Translations under genes and position numbers: made by a program
Notes under the pieces: model-generated
Databases searched by the model: none
Told to the model about the DNA's origin: nothing
The model's input: only the letters and a program-made list of their open reading frames with translations
Shown: positions 402 to 63,044 of the stretch, piece after piece
Numbering within the stretch: position 1 is the first letter of the stretch
Layout: the number at the start of each line of letters is the position of its first letter
Assembly (NCBI GenBank): GCA_951406725.2
Contig: OX597833.1
Location: forward strand, 64,108,001-64,172,000
Origin: Octopus vulgaris
Lineage: Eukaryota
Reading direction: 5' to 3'
DNA length: 64,000 bases

Positions 402-472
402 TGTTTCTTTATTAGCCACACAGGGCTGCACACAGATAGAACAAATTACAAGGTAGAGCTTTTCTTTTGAAT

Positions 473-512
<40 letters not shown>

Positions 513-1842
513 GGGGGAGTTTCGATCAAAAGGGATCGTAAAAGGAGAGAAGGAGGACAAAAAAAAGGGGGTTAAAAAAAGGGGGAGAGGAAAAAAAAAA
601 AAAAAAAAAATTGATCAATAGGGATCGTTATCACAGAAATGTCAATATGAAGTGTAAAGGGGAGGACAGGTGAGGTTTACCCGTGGAAAGAAAAGCCTAC
701 GGAAAAGACCACGGTAACCTCGGTCAATGAAGTCACATTTTATATTTCTTTTTTTTTTTTTTTTTTTTTTTGCAAATAAGCAACTCTCTGTTTTCGATTT
801 CTGGGTTCATAGGACTATGCTCAAGGTGGCTTCGTCATTCATACGTGCCATTCTTGCTACATTCACCCATCTTTTTTTAAAACATTCGCTAGACAAAACT
901 TGCCTCTCTACTCTCACTTTCCTTTTCAAGTGGTACTTGAAGAAGTTGATGAGAGATTGACCAGAGAGGAAAGTGTTTGTCTCCAATCCTTTCAGACGCG
1001 TCCACCAGATACATTCTTTCGCCATAGCCACAAGGATGATGAAAATAGCTCTTCCTTCCCGTTTGAAGGAAGGAGGCGTGACAATATTGACGATAGACTC
1101 AGCTGATAAACCGACTCGTCCCACACGTGACAGCAGTTGTTCGACATAAGCCCACAGGTCGGAAATTGTTGGACACTGAACGAGTGCGTGCAGAACGGTT
1201 TCGTCGCTCTGACCGCATCTCGGGCAGGTCGGCCCCGTGTTTCTCGAGCCGTGTCTGTAGAGCTTATCCCGAACGGGTAGCGCTTCTCGGTAGCACTGCC
1301 AGGCCAGGGATCTCTGGAAGTTGTCCATGGGCCCTGGCCCGAAAGTCGTCCTGAACAGGCGGGTCAGGTACTCCTCGTCGACGTCCAGGTTCGCCCCGAG
1401 CTCGTCGTCGTACCTCCCCTCCACTAAACCCCTATAGAATGCTTTGGTTGTGTTGAAGTCACTTAAGGTCGACCCAGGACGGCAGAGTTGCTTGAGAGCA
1501 ACGCGACACTCGCGGTGCCATTCGCCCTTCCTCGGCCTCTTTTTGATCCACGACTGCAGTTCGGTCATGGAGACGAGCTGCGGGAAAGCGTGCCTCACAA
1601 ACGGTGACCACACCTGTTCACCGTCGTCTACATAGAGCCAGAGATGCCGCAGTCTCAGCGCGTGTCTGCGCATCATCAACCACGGCATGCCCAGCCCTCC
1701 TTTTAACGGGTGTTGACAGCAAATGGATCGCCTGACCATCGGGACGCATCCTTTCCACAAGAAGCGAAAGAGGATGCGTTGTAGTTTGGTGATGGTAGGG
1801 TCGGGACAAGGTACGACGGTCAGGCGGTAGTAGATGACGGAC
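401..1842 (-). mobile_element. Tx1/L1-clade non-LTR retrotransposon, 5'-truncated copy 1 (ORF2 C-terminus plus 3' UTR)
   Basis: Open frame 807-~1842 with post-RT LINE motifs (LFRFLWKG, KGGLG.P, LPVRDKLYRHG) and a zf-RVT knuckle CPRC..DETVLHALVQC; ~400 bp 3' UTR ending AATAAAGAAACA then (TATC)n; near-identical to 56603-57681. Confidence 0.9.
807..1842 (-). pseudogene. Uninterrupted C-terminal ~345 aa of LINE ORF2 (post-RT region and zinc knuckle); no true start, EN and RT core missing
   Basis: ORF track 807..1982; its first ~47 aa (YLSI repeats) are microsatellite read-through. Confidence 0.85.
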
Positions 1843-3733: not shown

Positions 3734-3823
3734 CCGATAAGTTACGGGGACGTAAACACACCAGGATCGGTTGTCAAGCGATGGTGGGGTGACAAACACA
3801 AACACACAAACGTATATACATAC

Positions 3824-3876
<53 letters not shown>

Positions 3877-3927
3877 TATACATATATATATATATATAAT
3901 ATATAATATATATATATTTATATATAT

Positions 3928-3962
<35 letters not shown>

Positions 3963-9569: not shown

Positions 9570-9988
9570 AAGGCGGCAAGCTGGCAGAACCGTTAGCACG
9601 CCGGGCGAAATGCGTAGCCGTATTTCGTCTGTCGTTACGTTCCGAGTTCAAATTCCGCCGAGGTCGACTTTGTCTTTCATCCTTTCGGGGTCGACAAATT
9701 AAGTACCAGTTACGCACTGAGGTCGATGTAATCGACTTAATCTCTTTGTCTGTCCTTGTTTGTCCCCTCTGTGTTTAGCCCCTTGTGGGTAGTAAAGAAA
9801 TAGGTATTTCATCTGTCTTTACGTTCAGAGTTCAAATTCCGCCGAGGTCGACTTTGCCTTTCATCCTTTCGGTGTCGATAAATAAAGTACCAGTTACGCA
9901 CTGGGGTCGATGTAATCGACTTAATCCCTTTGTCTGTCTTTGTTTGTCCCCTCTGTGTTTAGACCCTTGTGGGTAGTAAAGAAATAGG
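9570..9988 (+). mobile_element. SINE-A tandem dimer (full unit plus headless ~184-bp unit) within one 13-bp TSD
   Basis: A box-like AGCTGGCAGAA, B box GAGTTCAAATTCC; junction AAGAAATA|GGTATTTC at 9802/9803; TATTTAGATGATT at 9557-9569 and 9989-10001. Confidence 0.9.
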
Positions 9989-10021
9989 TATTTAGATGAT
10001 TGATAATTAAGATCGATTTAT

Positions 10022-10555: not shown

Positions 10556-10559
10556 CTAT

Positions 10560-11200: not shown

Positions 11201-11570
11201 CGACCCCGAAAGGATGAAAGGCAAAGTCGACCTCGGCGGAATTTGAACTCAGAACGTAACGGCAGACGAAATACGGCTACGCATTTCGCCCAGCGTGCTA
11301 ACGTTTCTGCCAGCTCGCCGCCTTAAATATAGTATATATTTCTTTACTACCCACAAGGGGCTAAACACAAAGGGGACATACAAGGACAGACAAACGGATT
11401 AAGTCGATTACATCGACCCCAGTGCGTAACTGGTATCTATTTAATCGACCCCGAAAAGATGAAAGGCAAAGTCGACCTCGGCGGAATTTGAACTCAGAAC
11501 GTAACGGCAGACAAAATACAGCTACGCATTTCGCCCGGCGTGCTAACGTTTCTGCTAAGTTCGCCGCCTT
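11201..11570 (-). mobile_element. Two SINE-A copies in tandem (11338-11570 full, 11201-11325 3'-truncated)
   Basis: Reverse complement of the SINE-A consensus; short AT-rich spacer between copies. Confidence 0.88.
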
Positions 11571-11981
11571 TTCTTATACCTTCATATATCTACCCAGTAA
11601 ACTTCATATGGCTACCCATGTAAAATCCCACTTTATTATAACAATGGCTTTGTTTACCAGCACACTCAACACCACGGGTTTCATGGTGTGACAGAAGCAT
11701 TAGAATGACGAGAAAGCCAAAATCCTAACACTACGGTATTGAAGCAGGCTCTTTAAATATTGAATTCAAGTCCAGTCGAGGGTAACTTTTTATATCTTGT
11801 CCTTTAGGGTCGTTAAGACATAAAATAGAGTAGCAGTCTCAGTGCTGAAGACGATATAATCGAATAAAACAAATGGTGGCCATCTGACTAAATGAGAAAC
11901 AGTTGTTTTCGAGCACGGGCGTACAGAAGAGAATATCGATTTCAACGAAATTTGAACGCAGAACACGTGACTAAATATCTG

Positions 11982-12211
11982 TTTCTTTACTACCCACAAG
12001 GGGCTACACACAGAGGGAACAAACAAGGACAGACAAACGGATTAAGTCGATTACATCGGCCCCAGTGCGTAACTGGTACTTAATTTATCGACCCCGAAAG
12101 GATGAAAGGCAAAGTTGACCTCGGCGGAATTTTGAACTCAGAACATAATGGCCGAAGAAATATGGCTACGCATTTCGCCCGGCGTGCTAACGTTTCTGCC
12201 AGCTCGCCGCT
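11982..12211 (-). mobile_element. Full-length SINE-A
   Basis: Reverse complement of the SINE-A consensus. Confidence 0.9.
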
Positions 12212-12529
12212 TAAATTATCGTTTCTTAACTTACTGTCGTAAATAACGGGAAGTTATACGTAACGAAACAATATTGTCCCTTAAATATGCAAGCTTATAG
12301 TTAAAGGTGGAGAAACATAAAATAATAAGTGTGCTCAATCAAGCTTGATGTGAGTGTTAAACGACTTTAACAACAACGACAGCAATACAAAAGAAACATG
12401 TTTAAATTTACATGAAAAACAAGAACACTTACATACATGAAGACAGAATATTAATGATATACTTATTAAATATTTAAAGTTCTGTGTTAAGAGACCAAAA
12501 TAAGGAAAATACATACATACATATATATA

Positions 12530-17293: not shown

Positions 17294-17587
17294 TTCGTCA
17301 GTATCATCTTGGAAACGTCTGAACCACTCATACACTTGTGTGCCGCTTATACACTCCCTTCCTTACACTTCACCTCTGAGCATGTATCGCCTTGGCAACT
17401 GTCTCTATCATGACCAATGCGACGATCACACGTTACACATGTTACTTCGAGGCACTGCTGTAAACAGCGGGAGTGAGCTAGAACATTAAAAAAGAGGCCG
17501 AGGTCAATTTCTGCCAAGCGGCTTCACTCTGCATGCTTTAGCTTCGTTACTATAGCAACAGTCCGGACACTTATTGATCAGACCTCG
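17294..17587 (-). mobile_element. mariner 5' arm, same family as 43092-43972
   Basis: Ends TTATTGATCAGACCTCG|TA; minus frame VYEWFRRFQD (mariner HTH-like). Confidence 0.8.
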
Positions 17588-17609
17588 TATTGTCATTGTT
17601 CCTTATTGA

Positions 17610-18459: not shown

Positions 18460-18915
18460 ATGTCTGTGTTTGTCCCCACAACATCGCTTGACAACTGATA
18501 CTGGTGTGTTAAAGGCCCTGTAACCTAGCGGTTCTGCTAAAGAAAAAGGCGGCGAGCTAGCAGAATCGTTAGCACGTCGGGCGAAATGCCTAGCAGTATT
18601 TCGGCTGCCGTTACGTTGTGAGTTCAAATTCCGCCGAGGTCGACTTTGCCTTTCATCCTTTCGGGGTCGATAAATTAAGTACCAGTTAAGCACTGGGGTC
18701 GATATAATCGACTTAATACCTATGTCTGTCCATGTTTGTCTCCTCTATGTTTAGCCCCTTGTTGGTAATAAAGAAATAGGTTCTGCTAAAATAACCGACA
18801 TAATAACTGCTAGGCTTACAAAGAATAATTCCGGGTGTCGATTTGCTCGACGTAAGGCGGTGATCCAGCGTGGCTGCAGTCAAATGACTGAGACTAATAA
18901 AAGAATAAAAGAATA
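18460..18915 (+). mobile_element. SINE-B 3' half interrupted by SINE-A
   Basis: CATCGCTTGACAACTGATACTGG.. resumes after 18790 and ends with the (TAAAAGAA) tail. Confidence 0.8.
18546..18778 (+). mobile_element. Full-length SINE-A with 12-bp TSD
   Basis: GGTTCTGCTAAA at 18530-18541 and 18779-18790. Confidence 0.92.
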
Positions 18916-21319: not shown

Positions 21320-21540
21320 CATTGATTTCAGACGTTGCCATAGGGCCAGACATTATGGGGGAGGATATAGGTCGATTACATCGACTCCTGTGTTTAACTG
21401 GTCCTTTGTTTTAACGCCTCCCGAAAAAGTAAAATACAAAGTGTATCTTGGCAGAATTAGAACTCAGAACGTAGAGACAGGCGAATCGCTGCTAAGCATT
21501 TTGCCTGGTGCGCTAACGATTTCGCCAGTTTACCGTCTTA
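21320..21540 (-). mobile_element. Old diverged SINE-A-related copy (alternative tail)
   Basis: GTCGATTACATCGAC..AACTGGT..GAACTCAGAACGT..GCTAACGATT. Confidence 0.7.
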
Positions 21541-21573: not shown

Positions 21574-22122
21574 TATTTCTTTATTGTCTACAGGGGGCTA
21601 CCTCATAGAGGGGACAAACAAAGACAGACAAAGGGATTAAGTCGATTACTTTGACCCCAGTGCATAACTGGTACTTATTTAATCGACACCGAAAGAATGA
21701 AAGGCGAAGTCGACTTCGGCACAATTAGAACGCAGAACTTAAAGACATACGAAATACCTATTCCTTTACTACCCACAAGGGGCTACACATAGAGGGGACA
21801 AACAAGGACAGACAAAGGGATTAAGTCGATTACATCGACCCCAGTGCGTAACTGGTACTTAATTTATCGACCCCGAATGGATGAAAGGCAAAGTCGACTT
21901 CGGCAGAATTAGAACTCAGAACTTAAAGACAGACGAAATACCTATTTCTTTACTACCCACAAGAGACAAACAGGACAGACAAAGGGATTAAGTCGATTAC
22001 ATCGACCCCAGTGCGTAACTGGTACTTAATTTATCGACCCCGAAAGGATGAAAAGCAAAGTCGACCTCGGCGGAATTTGAACTCCGAACGTAAAGACAGA
22101 CAAAATACCGTTAAGCATTTCG
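21574..22122 (-). mobile_element. SINE-A tandem trimer
   Basis: Junctions GAAATACC|TATT at 21758/9 and 21942/3; ~184-bp period. Confidence 0.9.
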
Positions 22123-22975
22123 AAAGCAACGCAGAGCGGATAAATGCAAAATTCCTCTCGGTTTAGAATCGAACTGGAAAGCAGAGGGGCGATGGGTATT
22201 CATACCTTTTGCTAATGTCACCACATTCCCAAATTTGCCAGTCCACTATAAATCATTCTGACACACTAACGATTTCACTCAGTCCAATGCCATTTTGCCT
22301 GGCACCATTTTGTTCGACGCATCACCAATCCTAACGATCTAACGATCTACGAAGCAGCGTAGGATGTGCGAAATTCTGATAAAGAATTCTAGACTTGAAT
22401 ATAATTATGATAAATTCAAACACTTGATTCTGGTGTTCTTAAAATAAAATATCAATCGAGCAATGAGGGACATTTAAGCCGAGTCTACCCTTCTTCCATT
22501 TGTGATGCCTTGTGTCTACGTTAGAAGTTGGGAGCGGTTTATTGGCATTTTACCGCAGTAAATACGGAAATAGATTTATTTATCTCTTTTTATGCTCTGA
22601 ATGCCAAATACCACTCGATACAAATTTTGTTGATATCATTGGCAGAGTTAATACCAGAAGCACTATAAAAGACTCCGATTAAATGAGATTAACCATGAAA
22701 TTATTAGATAAAAAGAAATTACTTCTGGGAATGTTGAATATCTAAAATATAACATACAAGGGAGATAACTTTAATAAAAAAACAATTATGCTAATTTGGG
22801 AAAATAGACATGTATTGCAGACATAATTTATTTAGGGATTTAGGACTCTTTAATTAAGGGTCGGGGCTTGGTAGAATAAGTAGCGTAATGAACCAATTAG
22901 CTTGATATATTTAGCTACGAGCTTTAACGTTCTCAACTGATCCAAATTTGTATTTCATGTTTGCAAACGATCGAT

Positions 22976-23741
22976 AAGGCGGCGAGCTGGCAGAAACGTT
23001 AGCACGCTGGGCGAAATAGAAAGCGGTATTTCGTCTGCCGTTACGTTCTGAGTTCAAATTCCACCGAGGTCGACTTTGCCTTTCAACCTTTCGGGGTCGA
23101 TAAATTAAGTACCAGTTACGCACTGAGGTCGATGTAATCGACTTAATCCCTTTGTCTGTCCTTGTTCGTCCCCTCTGGGTTTAGCCCCTTGTGGGTAGTA
23201 AAGAAATAGGTATTTCGTCTGCCGCTACGTTCTAAGTTCAAATTCCGCCGAGGTCGACTTTGCCTTTCATCCTTTCGGGGTCGATTAAATAAGTACCACT
23301 TACGCACTGGGGTCGATGTAATCAACTTAATCCGTTTGTCTGTCCTTGTTTGTCCCTTCTCTGTTTAGCCCCTTGTGGGTAGTAAAGAAATAGGTATTTC
23401 GTCTGTCGTTACGTTCTGAGTTCAAATTCCGCCGAGGTCGACTTTGCCTTTCATCCTTTCGGGGTTGATAAATTAAGTACCAGTTACGCACTGGGGTCGA
23501 TGTAATCAACTTAATCCGTTTGTCTGTCCTTGTTTGTCCCTTCTCTGTTTAGCCCCTTGTGGATAGTAAAGAAATAGGTATTTCGTCTGTCGCTATGTTC
23601 TGAGTTCAAATTCCGCCGAGGCCGACTTTGCCTTTCATCCTTTCGGGGACGATAAATTAAGTACCAGTAACATACTGGGGTCGATGTAATTGACTGTCCC
23701 CCTCACCCCAAATTTCGAGCCTTGTGCCTAGAGTAGAAAAG
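22976..23741 (+). mobile_element. SINE-A tandem tetramer (one head, four bodies; last unit has the alternative tail)
   Basis: Junctions AAGAAATA|GGTATTTCG at 23208/9, 23392/3 and 23576/7; exact 184-bp period. Confidence 0.93.
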
Positions 23742-24249
23742 TTTTTATATGTATAAGTGTTTGTTGTTGCTATTGCTATTGTTTAACCCAAAGTTGACCC
23801 TGGATGAGATTTCTTTTTTAATTAAAGGTATTCCTGTTGTGTAATAAATCGTATTGTCTTTTTAATCATAATGCACTTCAACTATGTTTTTCAATACATT
23901 ATAATGTGATTTAAGCCTTGCTGGCTGCCAGTTTTAAAAGGCCAAATAACCTGTTAAAGCACCTGTCTGCATTAGTAAAAAAATTGTAGATTTAATTACG
24001 TTCTTTAAATTTCTGATCTTCTAATTAGGACATCGTTAAGAAGAGTGAATTAGTAGAAACGTGCGTGACCATGGACGTCTATGCATTATAACTATCCTGG
24101 GCTGTAAAGTACAATATTTTGGCGGCCTTGTATGTTTCTGGTAGTGTCAGGCTTTTCTCAAAGAGAAGTTGTCACTACCCACACGACAAACCCTTCACCA
24201 CGTGTTGAGGAAGAGGCATTGTGAGTCTAATTGTGCAGAGTCGAGGATC

Positions 24250-28930: not shown

Positions 28931-29164
28931 TTATTGCTATCGAGACATGATGTAATGATTACCGTGCCGGACAAACATACTTCGCGACGTTCTTTTGGCC
29001 TGACGTTTTGAGTTCAAATGCTTCCGTGGTCAACTTTGATTTTTTTTCGTTTCGGTGTCGATAAAACAAGTACCAGTTGAGTACTGTGGTCGATGTAATC
29101 GACTTACCACCTGATTGAAATTGCAGGTCTCGTGGCAAATTCTGAAATCCTCCAGATTTCTTCA

Positions 29165-29479: not shown

Positions 29480-30196
29480 CATACATACACGCCTGCCCGC
29501 GCACACACACACATAGAGGAGCTATGTTTCCATCCAGTAAATTCACGCACAAGGCTTTGGTCGGCCCGATTCTATGGGAGACACTTTCCCAAGGTGCCAA
29601 GCAGTGAGGCTGAACCCGAACTCATGAGGTTGACAACCACATATTGAACAAATAAGACTTGTTACCCACGGCCCGGAAACCTTGTTAAGCTCCGGCCTAA
29701 GGACTTCATGGCCTAACTACGAACCTGAATATTCTTGAAATTAACGTTGTCATTTTATTTGATTTTATTTAGCCACTATGTTTTGGGTAAGTCACAGATG
29801 ACTTCTCAAATAACGTCTTGGACCAGGACAGCACAAGCGTTTCGCATGACTGGTTTAGTCTGATCACCTGGTCAATGTACGGTACTTGCTTGAATTGCCA
29901 CCCTGTTGGTAATTTTGATCTCTCCACCAACGAAACGCCTTTCTATGGGGTCACTCCCGATGCCCCAAATAGCAGCCAAATTTCCTACATTCGCACCATG
30001 TTGGTAATTTTGATATTTACACCGACAAAGGAATCGGTCTATGAGGAAACTCTTGATGTCACAAACAACAGCCAAATCTCCCTCAAGCACATGGGCCGTG
30101 TCGTCTTTAAACAATTATACTTTGGAGAAAATGGATGGTCATCGCTGGAATGGCTATGGCCATACGTGTCAATACCAGAGCTCACAACAACAACAG

Positions 30197-30363
30197 TGGA
30201 GGCGCAATGGCCCAGCGGGTAAGGCAGTGGACTCGCAGTCGTAAGAAAGCGGTTTCGATTCCCAGACCAGGCATTGTAAGTGTTTATTGAGCAAAAAACC
30301 TAAGTTCCACGAGGCTCCAGCGGGGGAGCGTGGTAACCTTTCTCTCACTCTTTCTTCCTACTT
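30197..30363 (+). mobile_element. SINE-C 5' part
   Basis: GGAGGCGCAATGGCCCAGCGG..GGTTTCGATTCCCAGACC. Confidence 0.85.
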
Positions 30364-35698: not shown

Positions 35699-36264
35699 AC
35701 CATTGTTCATTTCATTAATGGAACGCTAAGTTCATTCAAATTCCGCTGAGGTCGACTTAGCTTTCTATCTTTTGAAGGTCGATAAAATAAAGTCCCAATC
35801 ATGTATTAGACTTCATTTGATTTACTCTCTTTCTCTCCTAAAATTTCGGGCCTTATTCCTATAGTAGAAAAGATTAAAGAGCTCCACGATGAGATGTAAT
35901 TTGGCCCGTTGGCGAAGTCGTTAGAGTTTTATGAAAGATTGTTCAATGCTAATATTTCTGAGACACATACAATGTAAGTTCAACTCCTTGTTTTTCCTTC
36001 CAGGCCGTTAAATGAAGTAGGAATTCAGAAGTGGAAATAAGTTTTCTAATTCTGTCTGTTTCTGAGTTTTTCTGTCGTTCTAGAAAAAATTTAATTTGGT
36101 CAGGTTGGTTGTGGAATATAGACCTTCAAGTTTAAAATTATGCGCAAGACATTTACGATTCTATCAAAAGTCATTGAGGACCGAAGATAAGGTAAGGATA
36201 TGACCTGATATTAGTCATATGGTCTGATGGAAGGAGCGGCTTCGATCTAGGTGGCAGAGGAAGT

Positions 36265-41240: not shown

Positions 41241-41403
41241 ATTTCGTATAAATAAGTAGCAGTTACGCACTGAGGTCGGTGTAATCGACTTAATCCCTTC
41301 CCCAAATTTCAGGCTTTGTGCCTGCAATAGAAAGGATCATTCGAAGAAGACGAGGAAGTACTGGAAATAGTAGCAGTAGTAGTAATAGTAGTAGTAGTAG
41401 TAA

Positions 41404-42949: not shown

Positions 42950-43091
42950 TTCAAAAATATACAAAATCAAAGTGCAAAACAAGAGGTGAAATGAAATTTA
43001 CAAAAACAACGATGGTGTTTTAGTTTGACATTCAGAGAAAATGCAACAAGGCTTTGACGCTTACACACACACACACACACATATATATATA

Positions 43092-43972
43092 CGTGGTATG
43101 ATCAATAAGTATCCGGATGATGGCCATAGTAACGAAGCTAAAGCACGCAGAGTCTAGTCGCTTGGCACAGATTGATCTTGCATTCTTCCGCGTATGCGCA
43201 CTATGTTGTAATGTTTTAGCTCACTTCCCCTGTTTACAGCAGTGCTTGGAAGGAATGTGTGTAGCGTGTGATCGTCCCATTGACAATGAAAGTGAAAGTT
43301 GAACAGAGAATCTGCATCGAATTTTGCCCAAAAGCTTGGCGATACCTGCTCAGAGGCCTACGCAAAGTTTTCAAAAAGTTTTCATTGTTCTCGACACAAT
43401 CAAGGAAATCTTGTGCAACTGAAACCCGAGTGCTTTTTGGTCAGCTGAAAGCAGTTTTGTCTCAAACATGGCAGACTCGTGTCTCACACACTAATCTTCA
43501 GTGATGATGCGCTGAACTGAACCGTAACTAATCTGCATAGCCTCTGATAACTCACGGATGGTGATTCGATGACTTTCCCTCACAGATGCATACACATCAA
43601 CGATGTCATTCTCAGTTCTGTTGATTGCGGGTTTCCCAGAACGTTTGTCAATATCGACATTTTTCGACCTTCATGGAAACGTCTAAAACCACACGTACAC
43701 TTGTGCACTGTTCATACACTTCCTACAACTTTGCGTACGCCTCTGAGCAGGTATTGCCATGACAACTTTATCTGCCATGGTCAACCTATCGATCAGACGC
43801 TACACACGTTATTTCCAAGCACTGCTGTAAACAGCGGAAGTAAGCTAGAACATTAAAACCTAGTGCGCATGCACAACAGAGGCCACGGTCAAACTGTGCC
43901 AAACAGCCTTACTTTGCGTGCTTTAGCATCGTTACTATGGCAACAGTTTCGATACTTATTGATCAGACCTCG
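43092..43972. mobile_element. Non-autonomous mariner made of two inverted 5' ends; TA TSD
   Basis: TA|CGTGGTATGATCAATAAGTATC ... GATACTTATTGATCAGACCTCG|TA; + frame EQRICIEFC; - frame ITIRELSEAMQISYGSVQRII and VAQDFLDCVENNENFLKT. Confidence 0.88.
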
Positions 43973-44054
43973 TATAGACAAATACATTTTACATATATGT
44001 GTGTGTGTGAGTCCGTGTGTGTGTGTGTGTGTGTGTGTGTGAGAGAAAGATATA

Positions 44055-45652: not shown

Positions 45653-45952
45653 GTCTCCCTTTTCAAGCCTAGCCAGGCTCATGGGCCCGGTTTCCCGGTT
45701 TCTGTGGCGTATGTGTTCCCCCAAGCTGGACGTGACGCCAGTCCATCGCAGAGTTACTCAAGAAACAGGAAGAGAGAGTGAGAGAAAGTTGTTGCGAATG
45801 AGTACAACAGAGGTCGCCACCACCGCCTGTCGGAGCCTCATGGATGTTTTAGGTGTTTTCGCTCAATAAACACACATAACGGTCTGGGAATCGAAACCGC
45901 GATCCTCCGACCGCGAGTTCGCTGCCCTAACCACTGGGCTATTACGCCTCTA
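45653..45952 (-). mobile_element. Full-length SINE-C
   Basis: Head as at 3470; tail GATGGACTGGCGTCACGTCCAG..GAAACCGGG..CCCATGAGC also present in 62748-63044. Confidence 0.88.
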
Positions 45953-46794
45953 CGTTATAAGGTCGTAAAGGTATTTAGGCAGTACACCTGTCTGTCCAGC
46001 TGTCGAAAAGTATCATCAGAGAACTATGCATGGGCGAGAACCTCTGCATAAGCACCCCTATACACTCGCCTTCCGCGTATACTCAGACAGACAGCTGATT
46101 AAATCGATACCAGTGTATAACTGGTAATTTATTTTGACGACCCTGGATGAAGAGAAAATCGAACGAATCTCAGCAGAATTTGAACAGAGCACACGAAGAA
46201 TCAGCTAAGACGCTGCAAGGCGTTTTTTTCTCCCCTCTCCGCCGTTTCTGACATTTCGCCACATGAAATGAATCTAGTGATTATAAATAAAATGGTAATG
46301 GAATATATGACAAAAGTGAATGTATAAACAGTGAACGGCGATGGTGGTGGCGATGCTTTAGCCTCTGGGTCAACACTGATTGAAGCAAACCAATTAGTAT
46401 TGATGGAGTGTAATAGTGTGTATTAGTGTGGCGGACGCGTGTTTATCAGCTTTGCGTATGTATGCCTGACTGTGCGGGAGTGTGTATGAATGTGCGTGTT
46501 CCTACTCCATGTGTTTTTGTCTCTATTTGTATGTATATATATGAGTGACACACACACACACACGCAACGCAGACGCATGTATGTATTCTTATATAAATAT
46601 ATATGTATAGAGTAAGATACATGCATATATATATATACATACATATATACATATATATGTAAGTATATATATATATATACATATATCTATAAATATATAT
46701 ACATACATACATATAAATATATATATACATATATACGTATATCTATAACTATATCTATATCTATCTATGTATATATGTATGCATACATATATAC

Positions 46795-50859: not shown

Positions 50860-51386
50860 TATTATTACGGCTTTTTTTTCAGCAAATTTTATTCAATAAA
50901 AATAATAACAGTATTTAACAAAAATATCTTTAAATGACGGTCTGGCCGTTTGCCAAGCAAATGGGAATCAGTAATTGAAGTAGATGGTGAATATGCTCCG
51001 GAACAATCATTTAAAGATGATTTCGTTACATGTTGTTATTGTTTTTGTCGAATATCATTAGTTGACAAAAAAGCCGCAATAATTATGCACCAACCCAATA
51101 TATATAATACATTATATATAGTACATCGCCATTTTATATTTGGTTGGTTCATAATTATTGCATAATTATTGCATTTTTCAACAATTTATATTCAACAAAA
51201 AACAATTAAAATATTTCACAAAAACATCTTTAAATGACGGTCTGACCGTCTGCCAAGCAGTAATTGAAGTAGATGGTGAATATGCTCCAGAATAATCCTT
51301 TAAAGATGATTTTGTTACATGTTGTTATTGTTTTTGTCGAATATCATTTGATGAAAACAAAAAAAACCACAATCATTATGCACCAT
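50860..51386 (+). mobile_element. Two tandem mariner-derived MITEs (~50860-51099 and ~51137-51386)
   Basis: TIRs TTGGTTGGTTCATAATTATTGC / GCAATAATTATGCACCAACCCAA|TA; transposase C-terminus LPSKWESVIEVDGEY. Confidence 0.78.
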
Positions 51387-51743: not shown

Positions 51744-51873
51744 TTTTTTCCTTTCCTTTTTATGATTTCTTTTGATCGAAAACCTACCACACTTTTTTTC
51801 TCCCCTAAAAGAAAAGCTTTACTTTGTAATTTGTGCCGGCTGTGTTCAGCCCTGTGTGGCTGATAAAGAAACA
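51744..51873 (+). mobile_element. Tx1-like LINE copy 3 (terminal ~130 bp of 3' UTR, diverged)
   Basis: TTTTGATCGAAA..AAAAGAAAAGCT..TTGTAATTTGT..CAGCCCTGTGTGGCTGATAAAGAAACA then (TATC)n. Confidence 0.85.
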
Positions 51874-51960: not shown

Positions 51961-52198
51961 CGTGATGATCCCTATTGATCGTTTTTTCCTCTTCTTTCTT
52001 CCTTTTTTCTTTTTCTTTTCCTTTTTTTCCTTTTTTTTCTCCCCCCCCTTTACGATCCCTTTTGATCGAAAACCTACGCCACTTTTATTGTTTCTTTTGT
52101 TTTTTGTATTTTTTTGTTTTTTTCATCCCACAAAAGAAAAGCTCTACCTTGTAATTTGTCCCATCTGTGTGCAGCCCTGTGTGGCCAATAAAAAAACT
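51961..52198 (+). mobile_element. Tx1-like LINE copy 4 (terminal ~240 bp of 3' UTR, diverged)
   Basis: GATCCCTATTGATC..CGATCCCTTTTGATCG..AGCTCTACCTTGTAATTTGT..GTGTGGCCAATAAA; (TATC)n on both sides. Confidence 0.88.
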
Positions 52199-53206: not shown

Positions 53207-54501
53207 GTCCCTCTGCACATACTTACATACATACATACTTACGTACATACATATATACATACATACGTACATGCAAGTATACTTACATATACATGTGTAT
53301 ATATATGTGTTTGTGTACATATATATATATATATATAAAAATGATATATATATCTATATATATATTAAATGATATATATAATGTGTATATATGAATGCTT
53401 GTATGTATATACGTATATATGTATGTTTATGTGTGTGAGTGTGTACACATATGTCTACATACATGCTCACGCGTACAAATATATATTTACATATCTCCAT
53501 ACATATATGTATGTACACACACACACACACACACACAAACACACACATATATATATATGTATATATATATATATTTGTGTTACTTTGTGCATGTGTATAT
53601 ATACGCATATAATTATATATTTACACAGATGCACACATACATATATATGTTTGCGTATGTAAGTACACCTCAACATATCTATATATGTATGTGTGTATGT
53701 GTGTGAGTGTGTGTGTGTGTGTTTGTGTGTGTCTTATACTATATTACATATATTATATTAGCTTGTTCAACGAAGGAATTACAATAGGCTTGTAAGCCTA
53801 TAGAATACAGAAGCCATTGTGGAGTTGGATTCAGTAGTTATCTTGTGACACTTGATAGAAGCAGACTGGAAGGAAGAATGGTAACGTGAGCTAAACCAAT
53901 TAAATCTTACACAAACCATTCGACATACAATGGCTGCTACCGTTATTCATGTTGTTCTAGAGGCTGCAGGTTATCCGACATTCAATAGATTTGTGATCAA
54001 AAGTTGTTCTACCATTTTACACTGTCGCGTTAATATTTTATGCAACAATATCTAACGCAGCCATCTTGTTTATTATTTGTTTACCTCGAGGTCGGCCATG
54101 ATTGACCTGAGCTGATCTGTAATAGAATGCGTTACTCGTGGACATATCAGTCATGTTCTTTTCCAGGCATAATGTATCTAGGACAGCATTACACAATGTG
54201 CGCTTCTTTTGTAGCTGTTGTTTAGATGTGGTCAAGCGTGAAGCGTAGAATGATCAAAGGGGTTTCCATCCTTGCCTGTTCTCTTTGCTTCGTTTCAATC
54301 ATGGACCATCAAGCATTACATCATCCGACCTGTTATTCCCTATTGCTTAACCTCATTACAATATATGTGATCTGTCGGAGGCCGTGAGGTGTCAGAGTCG
54401 TAAGCATACCGGACGAAATGCTTATCGGAATATAGTCCGTCTTGATTTTCTGAGTTCATATTCCGTCGAAGTCGACTTTGTTTCACATCCTTTCGAGGGT
54501 A

Positions 54502-54699
54502 TACTCTTTACTCTTTTACTTGTTTCAGTCATTTGACTGTGACCATGCTGGAGCACCGCCTTTAGTCGAGCAAATCGACCCATAGGACTTATTCTTCGTA
54601 AGCCTAGTACTTATTCTATCGGTCTCTTTTGCCGAACCGCTAAGTGACGGGGACGTAAACGCACCATCATCCATTGTCAAGCGATGTTGGGGGGACAAA

Positions 54700-54741
<42 letters not shown>

Positions 54742-54758
54742 TACATACATACATACAT

Positions 54759-54825
<67 letters not shown>

Positions 54826-54997
54826 CATATATACGACGGGCTTCTTTCAGTTTCCGTCTACCAAATCCACTCCCAAGGCTTTGGTCGGTCCGAGGCTGTA
54901 GTAGAAGAAACTTGCCCAAGGTACCACGCAGTGAGACTGAACCCGGAACCATGTGATTGGTAAGCAAGCTACTTACCTCACAGCCACTCCTTTGCCT
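54502..54997 (-). mobile_element. Full-length SINE-B inserted into an old SINE-A-like copy
   Basis: Head, CORE-like box, internal microsatellite 54701-54833, tail (GTAAAAGA)n; host halves at ~54390-54500 and ~55000-55087. Confidence 0.9.
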
Positions 54998-55954
54998 TTA
55001 AAATAAATACCATTTGAACTCTAGGGTAGATGTAATCTACCCTACACCACCCTAAAAGTGCTGGAGTTGTGCTAAAGTTTGAAACCGATATATTTATTCT
55101 GTTTATTCCCGTATGATTATAGTAAGAAGCTATTTGAGAGTGGTTTGGTAGGTATTTCTAGCAGGATGAGTAAAGACGAAGGTACTCGTTCGTTGACCTT
55201 ATATATTGATTATCCTTGACTCATTTTTGCTTTTAAATAATCTAGTTAATTAAATTTATTTATGTCTGTTTTCGGGAGAAAGGGTTTGTGATTGTGACCT
55301 TCCCATATTGTCTAAGATTGGTCGATAGATATCTTAATGTTCAACGTTAACTTTAATGCATCAATATTTGTAGCAAAATAAAGGTAGGAAGTATGGAATT
55401 AAAATTGGGGAGTGGCGCTTGTTGAGGCCTGCAGGGCAAGATTTTACTGATTAATCATAAAAGTCCTACATTTTTTGAGAGGAAAATGAGATAACATTTC
55501 GCCCCTGTTGATCATTTATATCAATAATGTGCAATACGTTGGATGATTATGGCTAATGATACAGCTTGCCTTGGGCTTATCGCTTCTTTAATAGCGTCGT
55601 TCACCCGGTCGTAGAGGAAAAAAAAAGACGCTATAATTATAGCAGAGAAGCGGGTAGAGGTTGGGGTGAGGGCAAAGTGAATTAGAAATTATTTCTAAAA
55701 GTGTTTAAGTGAATTTAAGTGTTTTGAGTACAACTTAGAACTTTGGTTACAGGGTTGGCTCAGCGGGATTTTAAACGAAGTTTAAATGTTTGTGTCACTC
55801 CCATTCATTAAAGATTCCGAGCTAATTCATAATTTGATGTTTCACTTTATAACAGACAAAAAAGTATGTTGGTGTATCTGTTTTTTCTAAAAGTGCCGCA
55901 GCACTTTGGAAATAATTCTTTGTAATGTCTGCCCGAAACATGGAAAAATTGGAA

Positions 55955-56345
55955 AGCGGTAGTAATTGATTATATTGACACCAGTACATGACTGGTATTT
56001 ATTTTATCAATACTGACAGGATGAAGAGCAACATAGACCGTGGAGGCATTTGAACTTAGAAGGTAGAAAGCCAAAAGAAAAGCCACTAAGCATTTTCATC
56101 TATGTGTTCATGATTCTGGTAGGCCACCATTTTGGAAATATTAATTCCATATTTTGATACAAGGCCAGCAATTTCGAAGAAGGGGTTAAATCGGTTACAT
56201 CGACCCACCCCATCACCGTGCAGCTGGTACTTATTTTATTGACCCCAAAAAGAATGAACGGCAAAGTGGACGTCGGTGGGATTTGAACTCAGAACGTGAG
56301 AGACGGATGAAGTGTCGCTAAGCATCTTGCCCAGCCTGCTGTCGA
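55955..56345 (-). mobile_element. Two old SINE-A-related copies
   Basis: CTGGTA(C/T)TTATTTTAT..GATGAA..ATTTGAACT(C/T)AGAA occurs twice. Confidence 0.7.
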
Positions 56346-56456: not shown

Positions 56457-56538
<82 letters not shown>

Positions 56539-56602
56539 TTATCTGTCTGTCTGACTGTCTGTCTGTCTGTCTGTCTATCTATCCATCTATCTATCTATCT
56601 AT

Positions 56603-57681
56603 GCGAGTGTCGCGTTGCTCTCAAGCAACTCTGCCGTCCTGGGTCGACCTTAAGTGACTTCAACACAACCAAAGCATTCTATAGGGGTTTAGTGGAGGGG
56701 AGGTACGACGACGAGCTCGGGGCGAACCTGGACGTCAACGAGGAGTACCTGACCCGCCTGTTCAGGACGACTTTCGGGCCAGGGCCGATGGACAACTTCC
56801 AGAGATCCCTGGCCTGGCAGTGCTACCGAGAAGCGCTACCCGTTCGGGATAAGCTCTACAGACACGGCTCGAGAAACACGGGGCCGACCTGCCCGAGATG
56901 CGGTCAGAGCGACGAAACCGTTCTGCACGCACTCGTTCAGTGTCCAACAATTTCCGACCTGTGGGCTTATGTCGAACAACTGCTGTCACGTGTGGGACGA
57001 GTCGGTTTATCAGCTGAGTCTATCGTCAATATTGTCACGCCTCCTTCCTTCAAACGGGAAGGAAGAGCTATTTTCATCATCCTTGTGGCTATGGCGAAAG
57101 AATGTATCTGGTGGACGCGTCTGAAAGGATTGGAGACAAACACTTTCCTCTCTGGTCAATCTCTCATCAACTTCTTCAAGTACCACTTGAAAAGGAAAGT
57201 GAGAGTAGAGAGGCAAGTTTTGTCTAGCGAATGTTTTAAAAAAAGATGGGTGAATGTAGCAAGAATGGCGCGTATGAATGACGAAGCCACCTTGAGCATA
57301 GTCCTATGAACCCAGAAATCGAAAACAGAGAGTTGCTTATTTGCAAAGAAAAAAAAAAGAAATATAAAATGTGACATCATTGACCGAGGTTACCGTGGTC
57401 TTTTCCGTAGGCTTTTCTTTCCACGGGTAAACCTCACCTGTCCTCCCCTTTACACTTCATATTGACATTTCTGTGATAACGATCCCTATTGATCAATTTT
57501 TTTCCTCTCCCCCTTTTTTTAACCCCCTTTTTTTTGTCCTCTTTCTCTCCTTTTACGATCCCTTTTGATCGAAACTCCCCCTTCCTTTTTTTTTTTTTTT
57601 TTTTTAAACGTTCAAAAGAAAAGCTCTACCTTGTAATTTGTTCTATCTGTGTGCAGCCCTGTGTGGCTAATAAAGAAACAT
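56603..57681 (+). mobile_element. Tx1/L1-clade LINE, 5'-truncated copy 2
   Basis: ORF 56692..57309 matches copy 1 except D->N; same 3' UTR; (TATC)n on both sides. Confidence 0.92.
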
Positions 57682-57755
57682 ATCTATCTATCTACCTATC
57701 TGTCTGTCTGTCTGTCTGACTGTCTGTCTATCTATCTGCCTGTCTGTCTGTTTGC

Positions 57756-57789
<34 letters not shown>

Positions 57790-57826
57790 ATCTATCTGTC
57801 TTCTGTCTGTCTATCTGTCTGTCTAA

Positions 57827-57901
<75 letters not shown>

Positions 57902-57983
57902 CCTATCTGTCTGTCTGTATGTCTGTCTGTCTGACTGTCTGTCTATCTATCTGCCTCTCTGTCTGTTTGCCTGTCTGTCTGTT

Positions 57984-58016
<33 letters not shown>

Positions 58017-58063
58017 ATCTATCTGTCTTCTGTCTGTCTATCTGTCTGTCTAACTATCTATCA

Positions 58064-58120
<57 letters not shown>

Positions 58121-58170
58121 CCTATCTATCTGTCAGTCTGTCTGTCTGTCTGCCTGTCTGTCTGTCTGTT
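57682..58170. repeat. (TATC)n/(TGTC)n compound repeat with a ~230-bp internal duplication
   Basis: TCTTCTGTCTGTCTATCTGTCTGTCTAACTATC recurs at ~57799 and ~58027. Confidence 0.9.
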
Positions 58171-58254
58171 TGCGGCTGATCAATATAGTGATAAATACAC
58201 ACGCGCAAACGCACGTACACTTAAAATCAAACACTCACAGACACACACACAGAC

Positions 58255-58305
<51 letters not shown>

Positions 58306-58877
58306 CATAAGTATGCATCTGTATAGAGTTATGTAGACACATAGTGTATGCAGACATATGTGTATTGTAATTTGCAAAACTTAAACCGAAACAATAATGA
58401 AACTACGATGCCAGACGGAATAAACTGGCATCGTTTTTGTTGGACTCTGTATTAAATACTGTACAACTTCATTAGCTGCTACGGTTTACCTTTGACTTAT
58501 AATCAACCCTCTAGGCTCGATAAACTAAATGTTCAATCTTAATTCAATTTGATTACATACCATCCCCTAAACCTGGTTTAGCTTAGTGCCAATACAAGAA
58601 ATCAATACGCACCATATGTACGTAGATTTCACCATATTTTAGCAAAGGGAGCAGCAGATAATTCCTTCGATTGATATATTAAGGTGAAACCTTTCTATGA
58701 GCTTTCGTTGCTTTTCCGACTGTCATTCCATTGCCTGGCGAACGAAAAGAGATTCTATAATCGTTATTCAAAATGGCGTCCACTAAAATCAGCGGTCGGT
58801 CATAAATAGACAGGATAATAAGGACGAATGAAGCATTTTGAGGAAGACCACACAGCGCCTATATGATCCCTCAGTTA

Positions 58878-59370
58878 AAGGCGGCGAGCTGGCAGAAACG
58901 TTAGCACGCCGGGCGAAATGCTTACCGGTATTTCGTCTGTCGTCACGTTGTGAGTTCAAATTCCGCCGAGGTCAACTTTGCCTTTCATCCTTTCTGGATC
59001 GATAAATAAAGTACCAGTTGCGTACTGGGGTCGATCTAATCGACTTATTCCCTTTGTTTGTCCTTGTTTGTCCCCTCTGTGTGTAGCCCCTTGTGGGTAG
59101 TAAAAAATATATAGGATGGCTGTTATGTAAGGCGGCGAGCTGGCAGAAACGTTAGCACGCCGGGCGAAACGCTTAGCGGTATTTCGTCTGCCGCTACGTT
59201 CTGAGTTCAAATTTCGCCGAGGTCGACTTTGCCTATCATCCTTTCGGGGTCGATAAATAAAGTATCAGTTTCACACTAGGGTCGATGTAATCGACTTAAT
59301 CTCTTTGTCTGTCCTTGTTTCCTTGTTTGTCCCCTCTATGTTTAGCCCCCTTGTGGGCAATAAAGAAATA
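58878..59370 (+). mobile_element. Two full-length SINE-A copies plus ~20-nt spacer within one 16-bp TSD
   Basis: TATATGATCCCTCAGT at 58860-58875 and 59371-59386. Confidence 0.92.
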
Positions 59371-59657
59371 TATATGATCCCTCAGTGTATTTTTTGCTGG
59401 TCAGTGTAGTGCCTAGCTAGGCGGCGACACTGCGCAACTTAAAAATATAAATGTGGGCGAGAGAAATATTTGCGTCACACCTCATCGATTGCATACCTTA
59501 CGTGACTTCGACATAAGAGATGACACAGCCTTGGATAATAAGACGTTGTCAGAGCAAAATAATTTAGACGAGAACAATGAACCTCACTTCCTAGAACATA
59601 TTATCTAAGCCACCTTTAAAACAAGAAATACAATTGCAAAACAGGAGGGTGTACTGA

Positions 59658-59893
59658 AAGGTAGCGAGCTGGCAGAAACGTTAGCACGCCGGGCGAAATG
59701 CTTAGCGGTATTTCAGTCTGCTGTTTACGTTCTGAGTTCAAATTCCGCCGAGGTCAACTTTGCCTTTCATCCTTTCGAGGTCGATAAATTGAGTACCAGA
59801 TACGCATTGGGGTCGATGTAATCGACTTAATCCCTTTGTCTGTCCTTGTTTGTCCTCTCTATCTTTAGCCCCTTGTGGGCAATAAAGAAATAA
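59658..59893 (+). mobile_element. Full-length SINE-A with 12-bp TSD
   Basis: GAGGGTGTACTG at 59645-59656 and 59894-59905. Confidence 0.92.
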
Positions 59894-59935
59894 GAGGGTG
59901 TACTGGATAATAAATTCCAAAATATAATCTGTTTG

Positions 59936-60260
59936 AAAGCGAGTGGCTTAGTGGTTAGAATATTTGGCTCACGATCTTGAGGTTGTGAGTTCGATTCCTC
60001 GCGGCGCGTTGTGTCCTCAAGGGAGACACTTTATTTCTTGTTGCTTCCGACCACTCATCTGACAAAAATGAGCTATACCTGTGTATTTTAAAGGGCCAGC
60101 CTTGTTACATTCTATTCCACGCTGAATCTCCATGAGAACAATTTAAAGAGCACGTATGTCTGTGTGTCGCTGAGCGACTTACACGTTAATTTCACGTACA
60201 GGCTGTTCCATTGGTAGGGTCGACTGGAACACTCGTCGTCGTAACCGACGGAGTGCCAGT
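59936..60260 (+). mobile_element. tRNA-derived SINE (family E: D-like head and centre, different tail)
   Basis: TGGCTTAGTGG..GAGTTCGATTCC; a tail fragment recurs at ~60685-60800. Confidence 0.78.
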
Positions 60261-60278
60261 CACGGTATAGAATGGGTG

Positions 60279-60505
60279 CGAGCTGGCAGAATCGTTAGCA
60301 CGCTGGGCGAAATGCGAAGCCGTATTTCGTCTGTCGTTACGTTCCGAGTTCAAATTCCGCCGAGGTTGACTTTGCCTTTCATCCTTTCGGGGTCGATAAA
60401 TTAAGTACCAGATACGCACTGGGGTCGATGTAATCGACTTAATACCTATGTCTGTCCTTGTTTGTCCCCTCTGTGTTTAAGCCCCTTGTGGGTAATAAAG
60501 AAATA
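60279..60505 (+). mobile_element. SINE-A with 15-bp TSD
   Basis: GGTATAGAATGGGTG at 60264-60278 and 60506-60520. Confidence 0.92.
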
Positions 60506-60831
60506 GGTATAGAATGGGTGAATATGTTATTCGCAAATGTTACGGGTGTCGTTTGAGACAGATTTGGAGAGGATTTCTAAGCAAATCGAGGGGGTGTATG
60601 GAGGATCTCTCGTAAATGTACGCGGATTAGGGATTTAGCTTAGTGCTGCAAAGACCAGTATTAAATCTAGCTTCTTGCAAGATTAAGGGTTCACGAGTCT
60701 GTGGAGTGCTCAGCCACTTGCAGGTTAATTTCACGAGCAGGACGTTGCGTTGATCGGATAAACTGGAATTTTGGTCGCCGAAACGAAGGAGTTCCGGTTA
60801 TCTTCGTACAAAGTCTAGTTATACAACCCAT

Positions 60832-62747: not shown

Positions 62748-63044
62748 GTGTGGAGGCATATGGCCTAGTGGTTAGAGCAGTGGACTCGCGGTCGAGGGAT
62801 CGCGGGTTCGAATCTCAAACCGGGCGATGTGTGTGCTTATGAGCGGAATACCTAATCTCCACGCGGCTCCGGCAGAAGGTAACTTCTGCTTACTCTTTCG
62901 CTACAACTTTCTCTCACTCTTTTCTCCTGCATCTTGCAGCTCACCTGAGATGGACCGGCGTCCCGTCCAGGTAGGGAACTTATAACCCAAGGAAACCGGC
63001 ATTTAGGCCCTATGAGCAACGCGTTGCACGAGAAGGAACAAACA
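62748..63044 (+). mobile_element. Full-length SINE-C variant with 13-bp TSD
   Basis: A box TGGCCTAGTGG, B box GGTTCGAATCT; ATTTACATTATTT at 62735-62747 and 63045-63057. Confidence 0.9.

What the first reader, a model, noticed from the sequence alone, without database searches (positions are those of the whole stretch)
57629..57681. SINE-A 3' tail is homologous to the Tx1 LINE 3' end: a candidate Tx1-SINE partnership
Seen (hand alignment): SINE-A CCTTGT---TTGTCCCCTCTGTGTTTAGCCCCTTGTGGGTAGTAAAGAAA (e.g. ~9754-9800) versus Tx1 CCTTGTAATTTGTTCTATCTGTGTGCAGCCCTGTGTGGCTAATAAAGAAA (57629-57678). That is about 38 of 47 aligned positions identical with one 3-nt gap, and both are at the extreme 3' end. 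Some SINE copies have AATAAAGAAA, and Tx1 copy 4 has TTGTCCC, each closer still. Known: stringent SINEs share the 3' end of the LINE that mobilises them, typically L2, CR1 or RTE; L1-group partners usually act through poly(A), so a shared Tx1 tail is unusual. SINE-A TSDs of 12-16 bp fit an APE-type LINE. SINE-A is not found in (GATA)n, so its driver is probably a sister Tx1 family with another or relaxed target, possibly the SINE's own GGTATTTC site, which would explain the arrays. Old copies have a different tail, suggesting a tail swap launched the young subfamily.
Basis: partly seen in the sequence, partly recalled or inferred. Interest (0 to 1): 0.85.

Follow-up and report, generated by a model that had tools for sequence, protein, structure and literature searches.

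The report
Octopus SINE carries a Tx1 tail
In this likely octopus genome, a very abundant short jumping element ends in nearly the same 50 letters as a Tx1-like retrotransposon that sits in GATA repeats; it likely borrowed that tail to be copied by Tx1-type enzymes, a tail-sharing partnership not found in the papers searched.

Summary
The SINE tail (9754-9800) and the LINE 3' end (57629-57678) match at 38 of 47 positions with one 3-nt gap, and both elements stop at the same base. No shuffle reached the score (0 of 5000). A profile of either tail finds only the other: 15 SINE tails and 4 LINE ends.

The LINE belongs to the L1 group, and its relatives score closer to Xenopus Tx1 than to human L1. 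Older SINE copies keep the body but carry unrelated tails, so the tail looks like an acquired module.

The driver is probably not the family seen here. That family is very young (0.4% between two copies), its tail is about 20% from the SINE's, and all 4 copies sit in (TATC)n against 0 of 15 SINE tails. SINE insertion sites favour GGT/TAT starts, including the SINE's own GGTATTTC site, which yields headless 184-bp arrays. A shared hairpin is not supported.

The decisive genome-wide search for the partner could not be run. A Tx1-driven SINE (SINEU) and tail-sharing plant and algal L1 pairs are known; a shared Tx1 tail was not found in 10 literature searches. Repbase was not checked. Verdict: new variant of a known kind.

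The parts
57629..57680 (+). 3'-terminal 52 nt of the Tx1-like LINE, homologous to the young SINE tail; ends AAAGAAACA, no poly(A)
57619..57680 (+). About 62-nt terminal block kept in all four LINE ends while the upstream pyrimidine tracts vary
56602..57309 (+). C-terminal 235 aa of ORF2 (zf-RVT) of a 5'-truncated Tx1-like LINE copy
57310..57680 (+). LINE 3' UTR (371 nt) with poly(A)/poly(T) tracts and two GATC-closed inverted repeats (57481-57494, 57556-57571)
   Evidence: read from sequence
57681..58170 (+). (TATC/TGTC)n microsatellite after the LINE; a matching array lies at about 56460-56602 before it (likely target)
402..1841 (-). Second young LINE copy (3 differences in 707 nt of ORF, identical tail), between (GATA)n arrays
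51745..51873 (+). Diverged LINE 3' end (7 of 52 tail differences from the young family), followed by (TATC)n; start approximate
51967..52198 (+). Diverged LINE 3' end (5 of 52 tail differences), in (TATC)n
9570..9986 (+). Young SINE: full unit plus headless 184-bp unit; 13-bp TSD; inserted just before an RTE-like ORF remnant; reference tail 9754-9802
11337..11570 (-). Young SINE with Tx1-like tail, followed after 10 nt by a 3'-truncated copy (11198-11326)
11980..12212 (-). Young SINE closest to the LINE tail (42 of 49), ends AAAGAAACA like the LINE, followed by a decayed internal SINE piece
18546..18778 (+). Young SINE inserted at TAGC|GGT inside a second, CORE-type SINE; 12-bp TSD
21574..22122 (-). 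Three-unit SINE array; units restart at the internal GGTATTT site
22975..23745 (+). Four-unit SINE array: three young tails, last unit with the old tail (fits insertion of young copies into an older copy)
58878..59370 (+). Head-to-tail dimer of two full young SINEs flanked by one 16-bp TSD
59658..59892 (+). Young SINE, 12-bp TSD; stretch used for read laying
60278..60505 (+). Young SINE, 15-bp TSD starting GGTAT
41250..41340 (+). Same SINE body with an unrelated older tail (also at about 35735-35878 +, 28990-29150 +, 56135-56340 -, 21320-21540 -)

Best explanation
The young SINE subfamily ends in a ~50-nt tail homologous to the 3' end of a Tx1-like LINE; it likely gained this tail by template switching and is likely copied by the enzymes of a sister or older Tx1 family rather than by the very young (GATA)n-targeting family seen in the window. 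Proposed steps: (1) RNA polymerase III would transcribe the SINE from its tRNA-like head and read past the tail, since the young units hold no run of four T (sequence shown, transcription inferred). (2) The Tx1 ORF2 protein would bind the borrowed tail and start cDNA at the same terminal base as on its own RNA (common end point shown, binding inferred). (3) The endonuclease would nick sites with a loose C|GGTAT / C|TAT preference, perhaps helped by pairing with the read-through RNA, leaving 12-16 bp TSDs (site bias and TSDs shown on few sites, cause inferred). (4) Because the SINE itself carries such a site, new copies would land in old ones and the cDNA would join by homology there, giving the headless 184-bp arrays (arrays shown, mechanism inferred).
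For: Homology in register to the last base. Tail replaced on a shared body: six old-tail copies score 10-17 against the young tail and 11-14 against the LINE ends, i.e. background. Young-tail bodies lie 1.6-13.1% (median 4.9%, 15 units) from their majority; old-tail bodies lie 9.8-36.9% from it. The LINE's conserved end block extends about 10 nt further upstream than the part shared with the SINE and is kept among three LINE variants whose UTR otherwise drifts, as expected if the LINE is the donor and needs its tail. The window's protein has 8 database relatives at 58-70% identity that are 57-92% identical to each other, so sister families exist. For a sister rather than this family: LINE copies differ by 3 of 707 nt, while the SINE tail is about 20% from all three LINE variants. 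Site bias (post hoc): 6 of 9 non-array ends have TAT at offset 0 or 2 (p about 6e-5); 4 of 5 TSD-defined sites have C before the junction (p about 0.005), as does (TATC)n; 4 of 9 start GGT or GATA (p about 1e-5). Joints from the tail back to the body near the internal site are listed in three of four public runs and show as loose ends in the fourth.
Against: No partner with a closer tail was seen. No genome is held, the public DNA collections held no relatives, and read laying was swamped by 190,000-355,000 SINE contigs in three of four runs. Tail folds are no better than shuffles in most copies (z -0.3, 0.4, -1.2 for LINE ends; -0.05, -0.15, -2.1 for SINE tails). The small hairpins sit in different registers with no covariation, so stringent structural recognition is not supported. 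The target statistics rest on 5-9 sites, were chosen after looking, and some of the ends are dimer linkers without a TSD. One old-tail unit (23578-23745) has a young-like body (9.8%). Divergence of old copies was measured from the young majority, so it mixes age with subfamily difference. An 11-nt piece at the start of the tail also occurs in a second SINE. Tx1 placement rests on relatives and bit scores; the tree had no L1 outgroup.
Confidence: 0.6

Rival explanations
1. The (GATA)n-targeting lineage itself (or its direct ancestor) drives the SINE, and site choice is set largely by pairing between the read-through RNA 3' end and the nicked DNA: LINE RNA running into (UAUC)n primes in (GATA)n, SINE RNA running into GGUAUUU or UAUA primes at GGTAT/TAT sites.
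For: Neither element has poly(A); both end AAAGAAAYA; TAT and a preceding C are common to both target sets. At 9986 the 3' TSD copy begins GG where the 5' copy has GA, as if two bases came from the RNA (one case, could be later mutation). Primer-template complementarity affects L1 priming (PMC3649969, passages).
Against: The match upstream of the junction at TAGC|GGT cannot come from 3' RNA pairing. The 20% tail gap and the much younger LINE copies. 0 of 15 SINE tails lie in (TATC)n. Kojima states that the endonuclease mainly sets the target (PMC4494074).
Confidence: 0.15
2. The tails are homologous but the driver is not Tx1: either the Tx1 lineage picked up its end from the SINE (reverse capture), or both took it from a third, non-Tx1 LINE that mobilises the SINE.
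For: The SINE is extremely abundant, so capture by a LINE is plausible. Direction was not tested with outgroups. CR1, Dong-R4 and RTE are all recently active in O. vulgaris (PMC13282606 Table 1), and only one RTE-like end could be checked here.
Against: The LINE's conserved end block is longer than the shared part and is kept across LINE variants that differ among themselves by 5-9 of 52 nt. The SINE body carries several alternative tails, so it is the habitual recipient. The RTE-like end scores 14, background.
Confidence: 0.18
3. Convergence or chance: both ends are GT-rich stretches followed by a polyadenylation-like AATAAA.
For: Without the last 11 nt the free local score is reached by 52 of 5000 shuffles.
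Against: Anchored match of 23 of 31 without the A-rich end, reached by 0 of 118,720 background positions; reciprocal profiles are specific; identical end point; 10 of 15 SINE tails do not have AATAAA.
Confidence: 0.05

Closest known systems
SINEU / Tx1-Mar of crocodilians (Kojima 2015, PMC4494074)
   Same: A SINE proposed to be mobilised by Tx1-clade LINEs; insertion into another repeat; tandem copies explained by repeated insertion at one site.
   Different: SINEU was linked by shared target and has poly(A); the paper found no LINE sharing the SINEU-1 3' end. Here the tail is shared, there is no poly(A), the visible LINE and the SINE do not share the target repeat, and the head is tRNA-like, not U1/U2.
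L1-clade tail-sharing pairs ZmSINE2/3 with LINE1-1_ZM and SINEX-3_CR with L1-1_CR (Ohshima 2012 PMC3472496; 2013 PMC3747384 Table 1)
   Same: About 50 nt of shared 3' end between a SINE and an L1-group LINE; the end is conserved among LINE variants.
   Different: Those are plant and algal, non-Tx1, and the monocot pair has a solid hairpin with compensatory changes; here an animal Tx1-like LINE with a microsatellite target and no supported structure.
Tail-swapping SINE superfamilies of molluscs (Nishihara 2016 PMC4824008; Martelossi 2024 PMC11481361)
   Same: One SINE body with several alternative LINE-derived tails, attributed to template switching.
   Different: Reported partners are CR1, CR1-Zenon, L2 and Nimb; Tx1 does not occur in the main text of PMC11481361.
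Microsatellite-targeting Tx1 families Kibi (TC)n, Koshi (TTC)n and crocodilian (TTCC)n/(TTTC)n families (as described in PMC4494074)
   Same: Tx1-like LINE found only inside one microsatellite type (4 of 4 copies).
   Different: Target here is (GATA)n/(TATC)n; the close relatives form their own long branch apart from Xenopus Tx1L; no partner SINE is mentioned for those families in the passages read.
Octopus OK/OR1/OR2 SINEs (Ohshima and Okada 1994; seen only as a reference listing)
   Same: The abundant octopus tRNA-derived SINEs; this element may well be one of them.
SINE-derived satellites of squamates (PMC10702118)
   Same: Tandem arrays made of part of a SINE.
   Different: Here the arrays are short (2-4 units), restart at one fixed internal site and follow an intact LINE-like tail, which points to repeated insertion more than to unequal crossing over.

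Membership tests
Tx1 clade LINE | ORF2 with APE endonuclease, RT and C-terminal zinc motif (L1 group) | tested here: met
   zf-RVT in the window protein. RT only in relatives, e.g. P0004 at 65% identity. APE only in more distant relatives such as P0012. The window copies are 5'-truncated.
Tx1 clade LINE | RT closer to Tx1 than to L1 proper | tested here: inconclusive
   P0004 scores 278.9 bits on Xenopus Tx1L versus 173.9 on human L1 ORF2p; P0012 292.7 versus 250.8. This favours Tx1, but the tree of 38 rows had no L1 outgroup and places these relatives on their own branch. The window's own fragment hits Tx1L weakly (E 7e-5) and no PDB L1 chain.
Tx1 clade LINE | Target-sequence preference | tested here: met
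   4 of 4 ends abut (TATC)n, which covers 2.3% of the window
tRNA-derived SINE | [quoted passage not shown] | tested here: inconclusive
   A-box-like motif at head position 13-14 in 3 of 3 heads scanned; the strict B-box pattern was not matched (a near match is visible by eye). ARAGORN found no tRNA and Rfam no hit on the SINEs at 56600-60600.
tRNA-derived SINE | Short, non-coding, dispersed, high copy, with TSDs | tested here: met
   About 235 bp; over 20 loci in 64 kb; TSDs at 5 of 9 ends; 190,000-355,000 contigs laid in three runs, 317 in the fourth
Stringent SINE/LINE pair | Shared 3'-terminal sequence ending at the same point | tested here: met
Stringent SINE/LINE pair | Conserved stem-loop with compensatory changes in the tail | tested here: not met
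   Weak 4-bp hairpins in shifted register; no covariation above shuffles
Stringent SINE/LINE pair | Concurrent activity of SINE and partner | tested here: inconclusive
   Young LINE pair 0.4% apart, SINE median 4.9% from majority, older LINE ends 10-17% apart in the tail; too few copies
Stringent SINE/LINE pair | Tail-dependent trans-mobilisation | not testable with these tools
   needs a cell or in vitro assay
MetaSINE | 66-bp Meta-domain after the tRNA head | tested here: inconclusive
   By eye no likeness to the BivaMeta-SINE1/BivaMD-SINE1 alignments in supplement part 1 of 4; the Meta consensus figure was not held; no alignment was run
Octopus OK/OR1/OR2 SINEs | Sequence identity to the published consensus | not testable with these tools
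   1994 paper, SINEBase and Repbase not available

The most novel reading that the evidence does not exclude
One Tx1-type machine is re-aimed by its RNA: the shared tail fixes where reverse transcription starts, and the few bases read through behind it pair with the nicked DNA and so choose the site, (GATA)n for the LINE and GGTAT/TAT sites for the SINE. A major octopus SINE burst and its self-perpetuating tandem arrays would then come from a stringent, RNA-steered animal L1-group retrotransposon, a natural two-template test of how target specificity is set.
Probability: 0.15. Interest if true: 0.8.

Novelty: new variant of a known kind. Interest (0 to 1): 0.52.

Why it matters
L1-group LINEs are held to be mostly 'relaxed' about their RNA: Ohshima's survey found only 3 of 58 SINE/LINE pairs with L1-clade tails, all in plants or algae. 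A tail-sharing SINE for an animal Tx1-like LINE would extend stringent recognition to that branch and point to a 50-nt cis element that can be tested directly. It would also name a candidate engine for a major octopus SINE expansion (SINEs are 11.6% of the O. vulgaris assembly, PMC13282606). Finally, it offers two RNAs with one tail and different targets for separating endonuclease choice from RNA-DNA pairing.

Tried and rejected
- No genome is held for the window, so the genome-wide partner search could not be run.
- A degenerate 24-nt tail motif found 0 matches in viral, metagenome and prokaryote genome contigs. A SINE body motif found 0 in viral contigs. Protein-based locus searches confirmed 0 of 75, 0 of 29 and 0 of 56 candidate stretches. 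Plasmids gave no match.
- Laying contigs of four runs on one SINE copy was swamped: 830 joints and 1318 loose ends were not shown, so neither a LINE-type loose end at the tail boundary nor an empty site could be seen. This is no evidence either way, and summed depths were not used as copy numbers.
- A shared tail hairpin was rejected as unsupported.
- The idea that old and young SINE tails are homologous through a CTTGT-loop hairpin was not supported: local scores are background, although such a short loop occurs in both.
- The RTE-like remnant at 10011-10556 was rejected as tail donor.
- Rfam gave only microsatellite artefacts.
- Atlas and cluster look-ups gave no Tx1 label.
- Earlier-findings look-ups by sequence gave nothing.
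- The R1Bm read-through paper (Anzai 2005) is not held and is not relied on.

Full report
Setting. The window is 36% GC and full of microsatellites. The named relatives of the LINE protein include Argonauta hians (59%) and an Octopus bimaculoides gene model carrying a piece of it, so the source is likely an octopus; this is inferred. No genome is held.

The observation. The LINE copy at 56602-57680 (+) carries a 235-aa ORF2 C-terminus with a zf-RVT domain, a 371-nt UTR, and ends AAAGAAACA directly before (TATC)n. Three more ends lie at 402 (-), 51873 and 52198. The SINE is about 235 bp, with over 20 loci in the window; 15 units carry the young tail. Whole SINE against whole UTR scores 39; 5000 shuffles reach at most 32. 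Across 36 SINE x LINE pairs the best alignment is always terminal, and 33 pairs beat all 300 shuffles. The weak point is the A-rich end: without the last 11 nt, 52 of 5000 shuffles do as well in a free local search. In register, the 31 nt before the last 13 still match at 23 positions, which none of 118,720 other positions reach (best 19). Reciprocal profiles pick out only the two sets of ends. Homology is therefore very likely.

What the LINE is. Full-length relatives have APE, RT and zf-RVT domains, and human L1 ORF2p is their best solved structure. The nearest long relative, P0004 (65% identical over the window's fragment), scores 278.9 bits against Xenopus Tx1L (P0374, named YTX2) and 173.9 against human L1. 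The RT tree (38 of 39 rows given; one dropped for under 200 aligned residues) puts P0003, P0004 and P0007 on a well-supported branch apart from Tx1L, but it has no L1 outgroup, so I call the element Tx1-like. All 4 ends abut (TATC)n, which covers 2.3% of the window. Eight database proteins at 58-70% identity, 57-92% to each other, show that several sister families exist. Their DNA could not be fetched.

Which side is the donor. Six SINE copies with the same body diverge from the young form just after the body and carry unrelated tails, scoring at background against both the young tail and the LINE ends. Young-tail bodies lie 1.6-13.1% (median 4.9%) from their majority and old-tail bodies 9.8-36.9%; this measure mixes age with subfamily difference, and one old-tail unit is young-like. 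The LINE keeps a terminal block of about 62 nt across three variants while its pyrimidine tracts drift, and the SINE shares only the last 47-50 nt of it. Both facts favour LINE-to-SINE transfer by template switching, the mechanism proposed for other tail swaps (PMC4824008), but direction is not proven.

Which LINE drives it. The two long LINE copies differ at 3 of 707 ORF bases. The SINE tail is 35-42 of 49 identical to the LINE ends and about equally far from all three variants. None of 15 SINE tails is followed by (TATC)n. So the very young family seen here is an unlikely direct driver; an older or sister family fits better. SINE sites are not random. TSDs of 13, 12, 16, 12 and 15 bp were found at 5 of 9 ends. 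Of 9 non-array ends, 6 have TAT at offset 0 or 2 (p about 6e-5) and 4 start GGT or GATA (p about 1e-5); 4 of 5 TSD-defined sites have C before the junction (p about 0.005). These tests are post hoc and small. One copy sits at TAGC|GGT in another SINE, the same motif as its own internal TTAGC|GGTATTTC site. Six array junctions in three arrays restart at that internal site, and one array ends in an old tail, as expected if young copies entered an older one. Joints from the tail back to the body near that site are listed in three of four public runs and appear as loose ends in the fourth. The young units contain no T4, so Pol III would read through the tail. Read-through bases could pair with the primer, as complementarity does for L1 (PMC3649969), but cannot explain the upstream TAGC match.

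Results against the stringent model. Tail folds are mostly no better than shuffles. The 4-bp hairpins of LINE and SINE are shifted by one base and show no covariation. From general knowledge, TSD length does not single out Tx1. The RTE-like remnant in the window ends in (GAT)n and does not match, but CR1, Dong-R4 and other LINE ends could not be checked. The searches for a closer partner were empty or swamped.

What is known. SINEU is proposed to be mobilised by Tx1-Mar through a shared target; it has poly(A), and no LINE sharing the SINEU-1 3' end was found (PMC4494074; passages, and part 3 of 5). Ohshima lists 58 pairs, three with L1-clade tails (maize and sorghum, Chlamydomonas) and none named Tx1 (PMC3747384: part 1 of 8, passages and Table 1; PMC3472496: part 1 of 3). 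Bivalve SINE partners are CR1, CR1-Zenon, L2 and Nimb (PMC11481361, passages; PMC4824008, passages, parts 2-3 of 6 and supplement part 1 of 4). The O. vulgaris annotation counts 13 recently active L1-Tx1 families and 11.6% SINE and, in what I read, names no partners (PMC13282606, part 1 of 3 and a supplement search). Also seen in passages: PMC5786205 (plus part 2 of 5 and a supplement search), PMC4758252 (four supplement files searched, one not searchable), PMC10702118, PMC8967140, PMC10294476. Ten library searches listed no report of a SINE sharing a Tx1 3' tail. The 1994 octopus SINE paper, Repbase, Dfam, SINEBase, figures and unread supplement parts could hold such a note, so the novelty claim is provisional. 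One earlier scan note (e1-7511667) describes a conserved end in Tx1/L1-like copies of another genome; it is a lead only.

Verdict. Real homology; likely a tail captured from a Tx1-group LINE, with a sister or older family as driver (0.6). Rivals: the same lineage re-aimed by its RNA (0.15), reverse capture or a third LINE (0.18), chance (0.05). It combines known themes in a pairing I could not find described: new variant of a known kind, interest 0.52.

Noticed in passing
window 54500-55004 (-), 3733-4122 (-), 18461-18894 (+): A second, CORE-type SINE shares a body motif, the TTAGCGGT motif and an 11-nt piece (TGTTTGTCCCC) with the studied SINE but has another tail and an internal microsatellite. 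This suggests module shuffling; it hosts the young copy at 18546.
   Followed up: partly
window 23696-23745, 41296-41340, 35830-35878, 56135-56180, 29107-29150, 21325-21367: At least two older tail types on the same SINE body, most with a short GGC-loop-GCC inverted repeat; no LINE with these ends was found in the window.
   Followed up: partly
window 57481-57494 and 57556-57571: Two GATC-closed inverted repeats in the LINE 3' UTR, kept in the diverged copy at 52.0-52.1k (the second, altered, also at 51.8k) but absent from the SINE; possible cis elements of the LINE.
   Followed up: no
window 58878-59370: Two full SINEs 18 nt apart inside one 16-bp TSD, suggesting a read-through dimer was copied as a unit.
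   Followed up: partly
window 59892 to 59674 (table 5): The deepest listed joint links the tail back to about position 17 of the head (34, 57 and 28 contigs in three runs), a second recurrent self-junction besides the GGTATTTC site.
   Followed up: no
window 10011-10556 (+): RTE-like C-terminal ORF remnant (judged by eye; Pfam gave only a weak DUF6451 hit) ending in (GAT)n, directly after the 9.6-10.0k SINE array.
   Followed up: partly
window 3470-3731, 30196-30354, 45677-45953, 62750-63017; 17307-17590, 43088-43301, 43671-43976; 50861-51385: Further repeat families, one with a tRNA-like head, found by self-comparison.
   Followed up: no
P0006: A close relative of this LINE protein is deposited under a bacterial MAG name (Herbaspirillum sp.), likely animal DNA contaminating the bin.
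   Followed up: no
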